DNA from: Escherichia coli
GTDB lineage: Bacteria > Pseudomonadota > Gammaproteobacteria > Enterobacterales > Enterobacteriaceae
Assembly: GCF_045037415.1 (NCBI RefSeq)
Contig: NZ_CP173438.1
Direction: 5' to 3' (one strand)
Length of the DNA: 64,000 nucleotides
Position 1 is the first letter of the stretch. The number at the start of each line of letters is the position of its first letter. A program made the position numbers. Shown one piece after another: positions 7,201 through 10,200 of the stretch.

Positions 7201-10200
7201 AACTGACATTGCTGCAAACCTGGAGTGAAGACGACTTCCGTCGGGTGCAGGAAAATCTGATTGGTCATCTGGTGACTCAGAAAAGGCTAAAACTGCCGCC
7301 CACGCTATTTATCGCGACGCTGGAAGAAGAGTTAGAGGTCATCTCGGTGTGTAATCTCTCCGGTGAAGTGTGCAAAGAGACGCTGGGAACACGTAAACGG
7401 ACGCATTTAGCCTCAAATCTTGCGGAATTCCTTAATCAACTTAAGCCTCTTCTGTAATCCAAATACCCCATCTGATTGTGAGAGATCTCTTACAGACTCT
7501 GTAGGAGATCGCCAGGAAATAAGCGAATACTTAAAAAGATAAGAATCGTTATTCTCATTTAAAAACAACATGTTGCTTGTTAATTCTTAACTTTCATATG
7601 AAATTTTCCTTAAGGCATTGTCTGTAAGCGCCTTGTAAGACTTCGAGAAAAAGACGATTCTATCTTCGTCGACAGGGAGTCAGACAACGAAGTGAACATC
7701 AGGATGATGACACTTCTGAAGGACACACCAGGATGGTGTTTCAGGGAAAGGCTTCTGGATGAAGCGAAGAGGATGACGCAGGACGCGTTAAAGGACACCT
7801 CCAGGATGGAGAATGAGAACCGGTCAGGATGATTCGGTGGGTCAGGAAGGCCAGGGACACTTCAGGATGAAGTATCACATCGGGGTGGTGTGAGCAGGAA
7901 GCAATAGTTCAGGATGAACGATTGGCCGCAAGGCCAGAGGAAAAGTTGTCAAGGATGAGCAGGGAGCAACAAAAGTAGCTGGAATGCTGCGAAACGAACC
8001 GGGAGCACTGTGAATACAGTGCTCCCTTTTTTTATTCCTGCTATCCTTCGCGGCAGTTTTTCTTATTGAGGTTGCTTTATGACCACTCATGACCGCGTTC
8101 GTCTCCAGTTGCAGGCGCTTGAAGCGTTACTGCGTGAACATCAGCACTGGCGAAACGATGAACCCCAGCCGCATCAATTTAATAGTACCCAACCGTTCTT
8201 TATGGACACCATGGAACCACTGGAGTGGTTGCAGTGGGTGCTGATCCCGCGAATGCACGATTTGTTAGATAACAACCAGCCGTTACCGGGCGCTTTTGCT
8301 GTTGCGCCCTATTATGAAATGGCGCTGGCGACTGATCATCCGCAACGCGCGCTTATTCTGGCTGAGCTGGAGAAACTGGATGCTCTTTTTGCGGATGATG
8401 CGAGCTAATGCTGGAAATACTCTATCAGGATGAATGGCTGGTTGCGGTAAATAAACCCTCCGGCTGGCTGGTTCACCGCAGCTGGCTGGATCGCGACGAG
8501 AAAGTAGTGGTCATGCAAACCGTGCGTGACCAGATAGGCCAGCATGTTTTTACTGCTCATCGTCTGGACCGACCAACTTCTGGTGTGTTGTTGATGGGAT
8601 TATCCAGCGAAGCCGGACGGCTGCTGGCACAACAGTTTGAACAGCACCAAATCCAGAAACGTTACCATGCGATTGTGCGTGGCTGGTTGATGGAAGAAGC
8701 GGTGCTGGATTATCCACTGGTGGAAGAACTGGACAAAATCGCTGATAAATTTGCCCGCGAAGATAAAGGCCCGCAGCCAGCAGTGACGCATTATCGCGGT
8801 CTGGCGACCGTAGAAATGCCGGTAGCGACTGGACGTTACCCGACCACGCGCTACGGCCTGGTGGAACTGGAGCCGAAAACTGGACGCAAGCACCAGCTTC
8901 GTCGCCATCTTGCCCATTTGCGGCACCCGATTATTGGCGACAGCAAACATGGTGATTTACGCCAGAATCGCAGCGGTGCTGAGCATTTTGGCCTTCAGCG
9001 GTTAATGCTGCATGCCAGTCAGTTGTCATTGACGCATCCTTTTACTGGCGAGCCGCTGGCTATTCACGCGGGCCTGGACGACACCTGGATGCAGGCGTTA
9101 TCACAATTTGGCTGGCGGGGTCTGCTTCCTGAAAATGAAAGGGTTGAGTTCAGTGCGCCATCGGGTCAGGATGGAGAGATAAGTTCCTAATCCAGGGAGA
9201 AAACGGTATGGCGGAAATTGGTATTTTTGTCGGCACTATGTACGGAAATTCGCTGTTAGTGGCCGAAGAAGCGGAAGCGATTCTGACCGCGCAGGGCCAC
9301 AAAGCAACGGTATTTGAAGATCCTGAATTAAGCGACTGGCTGCCCTATCAGGATAAGTATGTTCTGGTGGTTACGTCCACGACCGGGCAGGGCGACCTTC
9401 CTGATAGCATTGTGCCGCTCTTTCAGGGAATTAAAGATACCCTGGGCTTCCAGCCGAATCTGCGTTATGGCGTGATTGCGCTCGGCGACAGTAGTTATGT
9501 GAATTTCTGCAATGGCGGCAAACAGTTCGATGCCTTGTTGCAGGAACAGAGCGCTCAGCGGGTTGGCGAAATGCTGTTGATTGACGCCAGTGAGAACCCG
9601 GAACCGGAAACGGAATCAAATCCGTGGGTTGAACATTGGGGCACGATGTTGTCCTGATATGTTCAGCGAGCGGTAAATGCCGTTTTAGCGGTGCTGAATC
9701 GAATCTTTTCAGGCAAATGCCAGTAAAAACTGCTTCATAGCGCGGATTTTTACTGGCGTTTGCCTGGAGTCAAGCGATCCATTTCATACTCTTCTTTATT
9801 TCTTCGTTTTAACCCTTCCTTTCTTGTTCTTGTTTTCATTTCCGTGAAGTGGATTCCACCGTCCAGGGCTAATGCCAAAATCGGGCCTCATTGAACGCAT
9901 TAATGTTGTGTTGTTGCACGGTGAGCCGCTATGGCGCGCTTTTTATACTGCTATTGCCAGATATAAACACGCGCCGTATTCGGCGAACGACCTATAAAAA
10001 CGGCAAAAACACCCTACGTCACCTCTGATTTCCTGGCGATGTCGCAGTCCAGAGTGAGCGTGGCTAACGCGAATTTTCAGGAGTGCAACAATGAGTTCTT
10101 TAAGTCAGGCTGCGAGCAGTGTGGAAAAACGCACGAATGCTCGTTACTGGATAGTGGTGATGTTGTTTATCGTCACATCCTTCAACTACGGCGACCGCGC

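What the first reader, a model, noticed from the sequence alone, without database searches (positions are those of the whole stretch)
9711..9765. 19 bp inverted repeat downstream of yqcA, in the gudP upstream region
AGGCAAATGCCAGTAAAAA (9711-9729) and TTTTTACTGGCGTTTGCCT (9747-9765) form an inverted repeat with one mismatch, separated by 17 nt. No U-tract follows, so it is not a canonical intrinsic terminator. It could be an RNA processing or stability element for yqcA mRNA, or a binding site for a dimeric regulator of gudPXD (for example the sugar-diacid regulator CdaR).
Basis: seen in the sequence. Interest (0 to 1): 0.25.

Follow-up and report, generated by a model that had tools for sequence, protein, structure and literature searches.

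The report
Operator-like box pair enclosing decayed terminator
The inverted repeat between E. coli yqcA and gudP is real and conserved; its arms look like two copies of the regulator-binding box used by the glucarate/galactarate promoters, placed around the remnant of a transcription terminator, so it is an ordinary but previously undescribed regulatory and boundary element.

Summary
The repeat is real. The arms are 20 bp (9710-9729 / 9747-9766) with one mismatch, 17 nt apart, and it is the only repeat of this quality in 64 kb; 0 of 100 simulations produced one. It is single-copy, present in 5,425 of 5,426 E. coli genomes, unannotated, and has no Rfam match.

A homologous ~110-bp module lies between yqcA and gudP in 26 of 80 Enterobacteriaceae species. 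Two layers emerge.

- **Terminator layer.** In Citrobacter, Salmonella, Superficieibacter and Klebsiella/Raoultella the centre is a GC hairpin plus T-tract, terminator-like on one or both strands. In Escherichia this core has decayed to 4 bp. The U-tract lies inside the right arm.
- **Box layer.** Each arm carries an 11-mer box (consensus GGGCAAATGCC; right block GGCATTTTCAC) that is conserved even where the arms cannot pair. It is one base from GTGCAAATGCC, which sits about 42 bp upstream of the inferred start in the cdaR and garP promoters. Convergent box pairs 42-43 bp apart also occur at about -84/-42 of gudP and garP. A CRP-type site follows.

Best reading (0.45): a distal CdaR-type operator pair around a relic terminator. 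Main rival (0.35): a 3'-end protective hairpin for Rho-terminated yqcA mRNA. No binding or 3'-end data settle it. Interest is modest.

The parts
9208..9657 (+). yqcA (flavodoxin) CDS; last gene of the yqcC-truC-yqcA run upstream of the repeat
   Evidence: ORF list; RefSeq annotation of K-12
9672..9681 (+). Weak extra copy of the box (GGTAAATGCC), 40 bp upstream of the left-arm box
   Evidence: (D2 family)
9695..9781 (.). Full extent of the imperfect dyad (35-nt arms, 77% complementary)
   Evidence: I1; fold of 9690-9790, -46.3 kcal/mol, z = -7.1
9710..9729 (+). Left arm CAGGCAAATGCCAGTAAAAA = box D (AGGCAAATGCC, 9711-9721) + AG + A-tract
   Evidence: The box is conserved as GGC-W4-GCC in most of the 26 related species. 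Box plus A-tract resembles gudP box P (GGGCTAATGCCAAAAT) and the garP distal box (GTGCATATGCTCAAAAT).
9730..9746 (+). Loop CTGCTTCATAGCGCGGA, with a 4-bp inner stem CUGC (9730-9733) / GCGG (9742-9745). This is the decayed counterpart of the GC terminator stem of relatives.
   Evidence: Fold. The loop is hypervariable among Escherichia lineages. Relatives carry CCTTTC/GAAAGG, CCCTTT/AAGGG, CCGC/GCGG and similar stems.
9747..9766 (+). Right arm TTTTTACTGGCGTTTGCCTG = T-tract (9747-9751) + AC + box D' (GGCGTTTGCCT, 9755-9765, read on the - strand as AGGCAAACGCC)
   Evidence: In other genera this block is GGCATTTTCAC, matching 10 of 11 bases of the cdaR-promoter box GGCATTTGCAC. TTTTCAT>TTTGCCT is specific to Escherichia.
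9770..9791 (-). CRP-type site. E. coli has TATGA-N6-TCGCT; the consensus of relatives is TGTGA-N6-TCGCT. Centre about 9780.5.
   Evidence: Contains the only invariant columns of the 27-sequence alignment (14 of 14). Retained in species that lack the hairpin module. Same half-site form as strong CRP sites listed in PMC12871828 Table 1. CRP binding here was not tested.
9780..9845 (+). Pyrimidine-rich, C>G tract immediately 3' of the hairpin (rut-like composition)
   Evidence: GC skew -0.30 to -0.67 and strongly negative AT skew in 60-nt windows
9866..9876 (+). Box P (GGGCTAATGCC) of the gudP promoter, about -84 from the inferred start
   Evidence: Present in most of the 71 species with an adjacent gudP, about 205-250 bp before the ATG. 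In register with the garP distal box when both are anchored on the -10.
9910..9919 (+). Promoter-proximal box GTTGTTGCAC of gudP, ending 24 nt before the -10 (centre about -42)
   Evidence: Same 24-nt gap as GCATTTGCAC in garP and cdaR. Strongly conserved as AATGTTGTGTTGTTGCACGGTGAG.
9944..9949 (+). Inferred gudP -10 hexamer TATACT
   Evidence: All six bases are identical in the 16 species aligned. GTGAGA-17-TATACT was flagged in relatives. The transcription start is inferred, not mapped here.
10091..11443 (+). gudP CDS (glucarate/galactarate transporter), first gene of gudPXD

Best explanation
The repeat is a composite DNA element. It is the Escherichia version of a ~110-bp module that lies between yqcA and the gudPXD promoter region in many Enterobacteriaceae.

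**Anatomy.** Each arm has two parts.
- An 11-bp operator-type box. On the left this is AGGCAAATGCC. On the right it is AGGCAAACGCC, read on the other strand.
- An A-tract on the left and a T-tract on the right.

The two boxes converge and lie 43 bp apart centre to centre. The same box, orientation and 42-43-bp spacing occur at about -84/-42 of the gudP and garP promoters. A single copy sits at about -42 in the cdaR promoter.

**Proposed mechanism (inferred, not shown).** The common activator of these promoters, presumably the PucR-family sugar-diacid regulator CdaR, binds the two arms as a distal operator pair about 240 bp upstream of the inferred gudP start, next to a CRP-type site. This would assist or tune gudPXD activation.

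**The spacer.** In related genera the 17-30 bp between the boxes is a GC hairpin. Together with the flanking A- and T-tracts it makes an intrinsic terminator, bidirectional in some species, at the end of the yqcA operon. In Escherichia that GC core has decayed. Two substitutions (TTTTCAT>TTTGCCT) made the arms fully complementary. Read-through yqcA transcripts can therefore still fold into a 24-bp hairpin, which I treat as a secondary, RNA-level role.
For: **Shown**
- The repeat is far beyond chance and single-copy.
- A homologous module occurs in 26 of 80 species, always between yqcA and gudP.
- The left box is conserved as GGC-W4-GCC. This holds even where its centre is flipped (GGCATTTGCC in Klebsiella/Raoultella and C. 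koseri) and outer-stem pairing is at chance level, 6-11 of 20 pairs against about 7.5 expected.
- The right block GGCATTTTCAC is conserved in the same species. It differs at one position from the cdaR-promoter box GGCATTTGCAC. The consensus left box GGGCAAATGCC is one base from GTGCAAATGCC.
- gudP, garP and cdaR all carry (G)CATTTGCAC or GTTGTTGCAC ending exactly 24 nt before a TATACT or TATGCT hexamer.
- Anchored on the -10, gudP box P and the garP distal box are in the same register, and both are followed by AAAAT.
- The three box pairs are collinear in an alignment.
- The garP-garD intergenic region has its own 12-nt inverted repeat, TGTGCAAATGCT / AGCATATGCACA. Its boxes are conserved in 6-7 genera.
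- GCWWWWGC occurs 3 times in the yqcA-gudP intergenic region, the only 433-bp stretch of the window with that many. It occurs 3 times in the 374-bp gar intergenic region and once in the 154 bp upstream of cdaR. Background is 0.375 per kb.
- Box-to-box spacing stays at 42-43 bp in the genera measured despite a diverged spacer. The one large change, a 10-bp gap in Salmonella, is about one helical turn.
- Characterised PucR-family relatives bind 17-24-bp inverted repeats, sometimes in pairs (PMC7652997).

**Spacer**
- Terminator-like hairpin plus T-run in 15 of 27 sequences under relaxed criteria.
- The standard scan flags it in Citrobacter (both strands), Superficieibacter (+ strand) and Phytobacter (- strand).
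Against: - No protein-DNA binding data exist for CdaR at any site. A 2020 paper states its site is undetermined. The box is my inference from only three promoters.
- A single 11-mer match with at most 2 mismatches is no more frequent than chance in the window: 34 observed against 31 expected.
- In E. coli itself the arms match the reference box only 9 of 11 and 8 of 11. The gudP proximal box matches only 7 of 11.
- The pair lies far upstream, about -240 and -197.
- No -10 element follows it at the 24-nt distance.
- Whole clades (Enterobacter, the C. freundii group, Trabulsiella, Buttiauxella) keep gudP with box P and the proximal box but lack the module. It is therefore dispensable.
- The base pair flanking the box covaries (C-G 8, A-U 7, U-A 3). 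Complementarity in Escherichia also extends beyond the boxes. Both point to selection or mutation acting on pairing, which a protein site does not explain.
Confidence: 0.45

Rival explanations
1. RNA-level boundary element. In E. coli the selected function is the hairpin in the yqcC-truC-yqcA transcript. E. coli lacks the GC hairpin that follows the yqcA stop codon in other genera. Transcription would run through the repeat and be stopped by Rho on the C-rich, G-poor tract just downstream. 3'-5' exonucleases would then trim back to the 24-bp stem-loop. The stem-loop fixes and protects the mRNA 3' end and, together with the weak inner U-tract terminator, insulates gudP from read-through. The resemblance to promoter boxes would be secondary or coincidental.
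For: - The hairpin is very stable: -34 to -46 kcal/mol, z = -7 to -8.
- No U-tract follows the full stem.
- A pyrimidine-rich tract with GC skew down to -0.67 follows immediately.
- This is the anatomy Dar & Sorek report for steady-state 3' ends of Rho-terminated E. coli transcripts, with rut sites just downstream (abstract).
- Homologues are terminator-like hairpins.
- One stem pair shows three Watson-Crick types, and the covariation score was reached by 4 of 500 shuffles.
- Within the well-paired genera, mismatches are mostly G.U on the + strand: 28 against 11 A.C (my count; these are not independent events).
- Escherichia changed both arms so that CAGGC pairs with GCCTG.
- Arms are invariant in the E. 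coli alleles sampled, while flanks and loop vary.
- A bicyclomycin-sensitive 3' end exists further downstream on the same strand, at window 10073.
Against: - No 3' end near K-12 2922424-2922445 appears in the Term-seq tables of Adams et al. 2021 that are held here. yqcA may simply be too weakly expressed, and the tables may be truncated.
- RNAalifold finds no consensus structure across all 27 sequences.
- Outer-stem pairing is at chance in about half of the species, although both blocks stay conserved there.
- The overall G.U against A.C balance is 42 to 35.
- The shuffle statistics are within the range that the tool's own caveat says unconstrained alignments can reach.
- This reading does not explain why the GGC of the left box, or the right block, stays conserved where unpaired.
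Confidence: 0.35
2. Non-functional relic. The element would be a decaying terminator whose quasi-palindromic arms were made perfect by a template-switch (quasi-palindrome correction) mutation in the Escherichia ancestor. It would persist because divergence within Escherichia is low, with no current function at DNA or RNA level.
For: - The clustered changes TTTTCAT>TTTGCCT and CGGGC>CAGGC make the arms complementary in one step-like pattern. Interpreting this as template switching is my inference from established knowledge of quasi-palindrome mutagenesis.
- One Escherichia lineage (L003) has a visibly degraded stem, -26.7 against -40 kcal/mol.
- The module is dispensable in many genera.
- The E. 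coli inner stem is too weak (4 bp) to be an efficient terminator.
Against: - Both boxes are conserved across at least 10 genera, with the spacer diverged nearly to saturation.
- Spacing is conserved.
- The element is present in 5,425 of 5,426 complete E. coli genomes, with invariant arms in the alleles sampled.
Confidence: 0.1
3. Small-RNA gene or processing site. The module would encode, or be the 3' part of, a small RNA or a yqcA 3'UTR-derived RNA that ends at the hairpin. Alternatively, the 24-bp duplex would be an RNase III cleavage site separating yqcA from downstream RNA.
For: - In non-Escherichia relatives a conserved 16-mer, ACTGAATCGWGTTAGC, begins 7 nt after a -10-like hexamer. In that hexamer position 2 (A) is nearly invariant and position 6 (T) is invariant. 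The unit ends at the hairpin plus T-tract, about 70 nt in total.
- These relatives also have a separate GC hairpin right after the yqcA stop codon, so the second terminator needs an explanation.
- A duplex of at least 20 bp is the known minimal kind of RNase III substrate (established knowledge).
Against: - E. coli lacks the -10-like hexamer, having CGTTTT at that place, and its 16-mer has diverged to CTGAATCGAATCTTTT.
- No convincing -35 element was found in any species.
- Phytobacter and Kosakonia lack a + strand T-tract.
- No Rfam family matches in E. coli or in five relatives.
- No ncRNA is annotated in NC_000913.
- No expression data could be obtained, because RIL-seq and RNase III supplements are not held.
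Confidence: 0.06
4. Member of a dispersed repeat family (REP/BIME, ERIC/IRU, MITE) or a footprint of a mobile element.
For: - The architecture is palindromic.
- REP-like elements occupy the same intergenic region in C. freundii-group and Enterobacter genomes that lack the module.
Against: - The element has one place per genome in E. coli (median 1).
- nhmmer finds it once per locus, always at the same position.
- It does not resemble the ERIC or REP consensus as I recall them (from memory, not tested).
Confidence: 0.01

Closest known systems
Box pairs of the gudP and garP promoters, and the single box of the cdaR promoter (defined in this analysis; the regulon is that of CdaR/SdaR, from my recollection of Monterrubio et al. 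2000, which could not be read here)
   Same: The 11-mer box type is the same (GkGCwwATGCy, with an A-rich 3' flank). The orientation is convergent. The centre-to-centre spacing is 42-43 bp. T-rich sequence precedes the second box.
   Different: - The pair lies about 155 bp further upstream.
- No -10 hexamer follows 24 nt after the second box.
- The arms are far more complementary: 20 bp against 12 bp in garP, and none in gudP.
- In relatives the spacer holds a GC hairpin.
Operators of PucR-family regulators (C. glutamicum GabR: two 21-bp inverted repeats; B. subtilis PutR: 17 bp; AdeR: 24 bp), as summarised in PMC7652997
   Same: They are inverted-repeat sites of about 17-24 bp upstream of catabolic operons. 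In GabR they occur as a pair that is needed for strong binding.
   Different: - There is no sequence similarity to those operators.
- The CdaR site itself is stated to be undetermined.
- Here the repeat is a pair of short boxes 43 bp apart rather than one contiguous 17-24-bp palindrome.
Protective 3' stem-loops of Rho-dependent transcripts (Dar & Sorek 2018, PMC6061677)
   Same: Both have an energetically stable stem-loop not followed by a U-rich tract, with a C-rich, G-poor (rut-like) sequence immediately downstream, and both lie after the last gene of an operon.
   Different: - No mapped 3' end and no bicyclomycin or exonuclease data are available for this site.
- The stem is unusually long (24 bp) and contains an internal A-tract/U-tract.
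Bidirectional intrinsic terminators (A-tract, GC hairpin, T-tract; described genome-wide by Ju et al. 2019, from memory)
   Same: The homologues in Citrobacter sp. MGH106 and Superficieibacter sp. 1612_C1 are flagged as terminator-like on both strands. The E. coli element keeps the A5 and T5 tracts.
   Different: - The E. coli GC stem is reduced to 4 bp, including a G.U pair.
- The flanking genes are co-directional, not convergent.
- Complementarity continues 13-14 bp beyond the A/T tracts.

Membership tests
Canonical intrinsic (Rho-independent) terminator | GC-rich stem-loop of about 5-12 bp | tested here: not met
   The only stem adjacent to a U-run is CUGC/GCGG: 4 bp, one of them G.U, with an 8-nt loop. 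The standard scan did not flag it in E. coli. It passes only my relaxed 4-bp criterion.
Canonical intrinsic (Rho-independent) terminator | U-tract immediately 3' of the stem | tested here: inconclusive
   No U-tract follows the full 24-bp hairpin (3' flank GGAGUCAAGC). A U5 run at 9747-9751 follows the inner stem after one A. Homologues in relatives meet the criterion.
Canonical intrinsic (Rho-independent) terminator | RNA 3' ends mapped at the U-tract | tested here: inconclusive
   No 3' end in this interval appears in the held supplementary tables of Adams et al. 2021. Other data sets are not held.
Protective stem-loop of a Rho-terminated transcript (Dar & Sorek class) | Stable stem-loop not followed by a U-rich sequence | tested here: met
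   Folding energy -34.2 kcal/mol, z = -8; 3' flank GGAGUCAAGCGAUCC
Protective stem-loop of a Rho-terminated transcript (Dar & Sorek class) | rut-like C>G region immediately downstream | tested here: met
   GC skew -0.42 to -0.67 over 9760-9839. This is composition only, and no Rho binding was tested.
Protective stem-loop of a Rho-terminated transcript (Dar & Sorek class) | Steady-state 3' end at the base of the stem; read-through with bicyclomycin; shortening dependent on PNPase/RNase II | not testable with these tools
   The only related datum is a bicyclomycin-sensitive 3' end about 300 nt downstream, at window 10073.
CdaR (PucR-family) operator | Sequence shared with sites in co-regulated promoters | tested here: met
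   The box matches GTGCAAATGCC of the cdaR and garP promoters at 9/11 and 8/11 in the E. coli arms, and at 10/11 for both consensus blocks of relatives. The reference box is itself inferred, not experimentally defined.
CdaR (PucR-family) operator | Same geometry as the promoter sites (convergent pair, about 4 helical turns apart) | tested here: met
   Spacing is 43 bp here, against 42 bp for gudP box P to the proximal box and 42 bp in garP.
CdaR (PucR-family) operator | Conservation independent of base-pairing potential | tested here: met
   Both blocks are conserved in Klebsiella/Raoultella, Phytobacter, Kosakonia and Silvania, where 6-11 of 20 arm positions pair, which is chance level.
CdaR (PucR-family) operator | Binding by the protein and an effect on transcription | not testable with these tools
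   No published CdaR site was found. PMC7652997 states it is undetermined.
Dispersed repeats (REP/BIME, ERIC, MITE) | Many copies per genome | tested here: not met
   One place per genome in E. coli (median 1). One hit per locus in 80 species.
Described RNA family (Rfam 15) | Covariance-model match | tested here: not met
   Only chance-level hits over 7000-10600 apart from csrB. Nothing in the intergenic region of five relatives.
Small-RNA gene | Own promoter plus terminator plus conserved body | tested here: not met
   E. coli lacks the -10-like hexamer and the conserved 16-mer of relatives, and its terminator core has decayed. The result is inconclusive for the relatives.
Small protein-coding ORF | Conserved reading frame | tested here: not met
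   ORFs of 12-24 aa appear sporadically on either strand, with no conserved frame.

The most novel reading that the evidence does not exclude
The module would be a true dual-use palindrome: one 43-bp unit that acts in two ways.
- On DNA it is an operator pair for the sugar-diacid regulator.
- On RNA it is a terminator or hairpin, bidirectional in some species.

Regulator occupancy and transcription arriving from yqcA would then be mechanistically coupled. For example, bound CdaR could act as a roadblock or antiterminator that decides whether read-through reaches gudPXD.

In Citrobacter, Salmonella and related genera the same unit would also terminate a conserved, unannotated ~70-nt RNA that starts at ACUGAAUCGWGUUAGC.
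Probability: 0.1. Interest if true: 0.55.

Novelty: new member of a known kind. Interest (0 to 1): 0.33.

Why it matters
**A testable CdaR operator.** A 2020 paper (PMC7652997) states that the CdaR binding site had not been determined. The alignment of the gudP, garP and cdaR promoters with this repeat gives a concrete model:
- a box GTGCAAATGCC centred about -42;
- a second, convergent box about 42 bp upstream;
- a third pair at the repeat.

This model can be checked with one EMSA or footprint series. CdaR with the gudP promoter is used as a glucarate biosensor (PMC7544201), so knowing which upstream pieces matter has practical value.

**How intergenic signals layer and decay.** A terminator core sits in the spacer of an operator pair. 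That core was lost in Escherichia, while the arms became perfectly complementary.

None of this would surprise a specialist. It is a solid but ordinary regulatory and boundary element.

Tried and rejected
- **Rfam.** I searched the E. coli region and five relatives. Only csrB matched.
- **Dispersed repeat or mobile element.** The element is single-copy. One strain carries an unrelated IS66 insertion next to it.
- **Small ORFs.** M-P-V-K-T-A-S on the + strand and M-K-Q-F-L-L-A-F-A on the - strand are not conserved.
- **Minus-strand sigma-70 promoter.** TTGACT-16-AAAAAT at 9773-9746 was flagged. The -10 part is not conserved in relatives by my reading, and the count equals the chance expectation.
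- **Sigma-54 and sigma-28 resemblances.** Register and spacing do not fit (inspection only).
- **The box pair as a promoter.** No -10-like hexamer lies 24 nt beyond either box in E. coli or relatives (inspection).
- **Single consensus RNA structure.** RNAalifold returned none over all 27 homologues.
- **Strand asymmetry of wobble pairs.** The overall count is not decisive, 42 G.U against 35 A.C.
- **E. coli population variation.** The sampled alleles differ only outside the arms or in the loop, which is too little variation to test compensation.
- **Literature.**
  - No paper mentions yqcA together with gudP.
  - Monterrubio et al. 2000 is not held.
  - No CdaR motif or truncation study was found.
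  - Term-seq, RNase III, RIL-seq, biosensor and Footprint-seq supplements are either not held or contain no entry for this site.
- **Single-box matching.** Matching alone is not significant, 34 hits against 31 expected. I rest the case on conservation, register and pairing geometry instead.

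
Full report
**1.

The window is E. coli. The gene order is csrB (7677-8036), yqcC (8079-8408), truC (8408-9190), yqcA (9208-9657), a 433-bp intergenic region, gudP (10091-11443), then gudX. All are on the + strand.

Complementarity actually runs 20 bp (9710-9729 / 9747-9766) and continues imperfectly over 35-nt arms. It is the only repeat of that quality in the window. None arose in 100 Markov simulations.

As + strand RNA the mismatch is a G.U wobble and four more inner pairs form. The energy is -34.2 kcal/mol with z = -8. The - strand is weaker at -27.6 kcal/mol.

The intergenic region is present once per genome in 5,425 of 5,426 complete E. coli genomes. No feature is annotated there, including in NC_000913. 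Rfam has nothing there.

**2. Homologues exist well beyond Escherichia**

I fetched 80 Enterobacteriaceae loci by YqcA similarity. In 71 of them gudP follows yqcA directly.

An nhmmer profile finds a ~110-bp homologous module in 26 species. They span Escherichia, part of Citrobacter, Salmonella, Silvania, Kosakonia, Phytobacter, Superficieibacter, Klebsiella/Raoultella and some MAGs. The module is always single and always between yqcA and gudP.

Enterobacter, the C. freundii group, Trabulsiella, Buttiauxella and others have a shorter intergenic region without it, in several cases with REP-like sequence instead. E. albertii and some Citrobacter that lack gudPXD at this place also lack the module.

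**3. Layer one: a terminator in the centre**

- In Citrobacter sp. MGH106 the centre reads AAAAGCCTTTCATTTGAAAGGGTTTTT. The standard scan flags it as terminator-like on both strands.
- Superficieibacter is flagged on the + strand.
- Phytobacter is flagged on the - strand only.
- With a relaxed rule, 15 of 27 sequences have a stem plus T-run: 14 on the + strand and 5 on the - strand.

The inner stems differ in sequence from genus to genus (CCTTTC/GAAAGG, CCCTTT/AAGGG, CCGC/GCGG, CCCTC/GAGGG), but a stem is kept.

In those genera yqcA also has its own GC hairpin directly after the stop codon. E. coli lacks that hairpin. Its central stem has shrunk to CUGC/GCGG, and the loop is hypervariable among Escherichia lineages.

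It overlooks the U5 run inside the right arm, which is the homologue of the terminator U-tract.

**4. Is the long outer stem conserved?**

Only partly.

| Group | Arm positions that pair, of 20 |
|---|---|
| Escherichia | 18-20 |
| Citrobacter and Salmonella | 13-17 for six of the eight; C. koseri 10 |
| Superficieibacter | 12-13 |
| Klebsiella/Raoultella, Phytobacter, Kosakonia, Silvania | 6-11 (chance is about 7.5) |

RNAalifold finds no common structure. One pair, the N of GCCNG/CNGGC, covaries clearly: C-G 8, A-U 7, U-A 3. The covariation score was reached by only 4 of 500 shuffles. The tool's caveat says such values can arise without constraint.

Escherichia extended the pairing through TTTTCAT>TTTGCCT on the right and CGGGC>CAGGC on the left.

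**5. Layer two: conserved boxes in the arms**

The best-conserved positions of the module outside the downstream block are the GGC and GCC of the left-arm box and the right block.

The left box is kept as a palindrome, GGC-W4-GCC. This holds even when its centre is flipped (GGCATTTGCC), which abolishes pairing with the right arm. The right block in non-Escherichia genera is GGCATTTTCAC.

I compared these with the other promoters that the same regulator is reported to control. I cite that from memory of Monterrubio et al. 2000, which was not readable here.

- In K-12, gudP (GTTGTTGCAC), garP (GCATTTGCAC) and cdaR (GCATTTGCAC) each carry a box ending exactly 24 nt before TATACT or TATGCT. That places it at about -42.
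- Anchored on the -10, gudP box P (GGGCTAATGCCAAAAT, 9866-) and the garP distal box (GTGCATATGCTCAAAAT) fall in the same register at about -84.
- Read on one strand, the cdaR box is GTGCAAATGCC. The consensus left box (GGGCAAATGCC) and the reverse complement of the right block (GTGAAAATGCC) each differ from it by one base. The E. coli arms differ by 2 and 3 bases.
- All three pairs are convergent and 42-43 bp apart: gudP box P with its proximal box, the garP distal and proximal boxes, and the two arms.
- The garP pair is itself a 12-nt inverted repeat. Its boxes are conserved in six to seven genera.
- GCWWWWGC is enriched in exactly these regulatory regions: 7 in 961 bp against 0.375 per kb background.
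- Box spacing in the module is 42-43 bp in the genera measured. The only large change is a 10-bp gap in Salmonella, about one helical turn.
- Characterised PucR-family relatives bind 17-24-bp inverted repeats, sometimes in pairs. The CdaR site itself was undetermined as of 2020.

**6. Neighbours**

Directly after the right arm lies GTCAAGCGAyCnnTTTCAyACTC (9769-9791). It holds all 14 invariant columns of the 27-sequence alignment and is retained in species that lost the module. On the minus strand its consensus is TGTGA-N6-TCGCT. A recent in vitro footprinting preprint lists that form among strong CRP sites, and the same preprint reports CRP sites at cdaR and at garP/garD.

Downstream of it the + strand is pyrimidine-rich with C far above G.

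**7. Weighing the readings**

The operator reading explains:
- deep conservation of both blocks regardless of pairing;
- their similarity to the promoter boxes;
- their orientation;
- the fixed spacing.

It does not explain:
- the covarying flank pair;
- the extension of complementarity in Escherichia;
- the GC hairpins in the spacer.

The RNA reading explains those three points. It also matches the published anatomy of protective stem-loops at Rho-dependent 3' ends. It fails for half of the species, and it has no 3'-end support in the one data set I could inspect.

I conclude that the element is composite. I rank 'distal operator pair of the sugar-diacid regulon enclosing a relic terminator' first (0.45). 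'RNA 3'-end or boundary hairpin as the main function in E. coli' is second (0.35). The two are not mutually exclusive. A neutral relic perfected by template switching (0.10), an sRNA or RNase III site (0.06) and a dispersed repeat (0.01) follow.

The caveats are important:
- The box was inferred post hoc from three promoters.
- Single-box matches are at chance frequency.
- The gudP proximal box is degenerate.
- Nothing here shows protein binding or an RNA end.

**8. Comparison with known kinds and novelty**

It works like an upstream operator pair, like a terminator-derived hairpin, or both. Those are known kinds. It is not a member of any Rfam family, REP/ERIC family or annotated sRNA. Membership in 'canonical intrinsic terminator' fails for E. 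coli on stem strength.

What is new is modest. It offers a candidate CdaR box and architecture, plus the layered arrangement. Interest is 0.33.

Noticed in passing
window 10008-10075: The gudP 5' leader carries two conserved hairpins. H1 keeps its pairing through compensatory changes across genera (CUCUG/CAGAG, UUCUG/CAGAA, UCCUG/CAGGA, UUCGG/CCGGA). H2 (GCGUGGCUAACGC) is followed by GAAUUUU just before the Shine-Dalgarno sequence. Adams et al. 2021 list a bicyclomycin-sensitive 3' end at K-12 2922118(-), which is window 10073, right after H2. This may be a leader attenuator of gudPXD.
   Followed up: partly
L008 3451-3600, L025 3451-3600 and other non-Escherichia loci: Between the GC hairpin after yqcA and the box/terminator unit lie several conserved blocks: TGCCAGTAAGCA..AACGACC, then a -10-like hexamer (position 2, A, nearly invariant; position 6, T, invariant), then, 7 nt later, ACTGAATCGWGTTAGC. 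This could be an unannotated ~70-nt RNA or a 3'UTR element. It is absent or degenerate in E. coli, and Rfam has no match.
   Followed up: partly
window 9770-9791: A CRP-type site (consensus TGTGA-N6-TCGCT on the minus strand) holds the only invariant columns of the 27-sequence alignment and persists in species that lack the hairpin module. It lies about 175 bp upstream of the inferred gudP start, which is unusually far for CRP activation.
   Followed up: partly
window 9866-9949; L083 9003-9091 (minus strand); L084 about 2399-2442: The gudP, garP and cdaR promoters share an architecture: a box ending 24 nt before the -10 (TATACT or TATGCT), and in gudP and garP a second convergent box 42 bp upstream followed by AAAAT. 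This gives a candidate operator for CdaR, whose site was reported as undetermined in 2020.
   Followed up: yes
window 9950-9990 and relatives (alignment); module upstream part in L008, L025 and others: The motif pair GCCAGT..AA....ACGACC occurs right after the gudP -10 (start of the leader) and again, more compactly, upstream of the hairpin module in non-Escherichia genera. This hints at an old partial duplication of the promoter region, or at a shared binding site.
   Followed up: no
L094 1615-3115 (E. coli 2014C-4135, NZ_CP027310): An ISEc23 (IS66-family) element is inserted immediately after GTCAAG, inside the CRP-type site and a few bases beyond the right arm of the repeat.
   Followed up: no
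L017 (E. albertii); L013-L015, L020 (Citrobacter); L059, L061, L073, L076: These species lack gudPXD next to yqcA, and none of them has the module or the CRP-type site. The module therefore travels with the gud side of the intergenic region.
   Followed up: partly
L086 (Klebsiella michiganensis) garP-garD intergenic region: An insertion that looks ERIC-like (...GTGAGCGAGGAAAGCCAACGCACATGCAGC...), judged from memory of the ERIC consensus, lies upstream of garD and lengthens the intergenic region.
   Followed up: no
window 7677-8036: There is a full-length csrB sRNA match (Rfam RF00018, 383 bits), with its terminator also matching weakly on the opposite strand.
   Followed up: no
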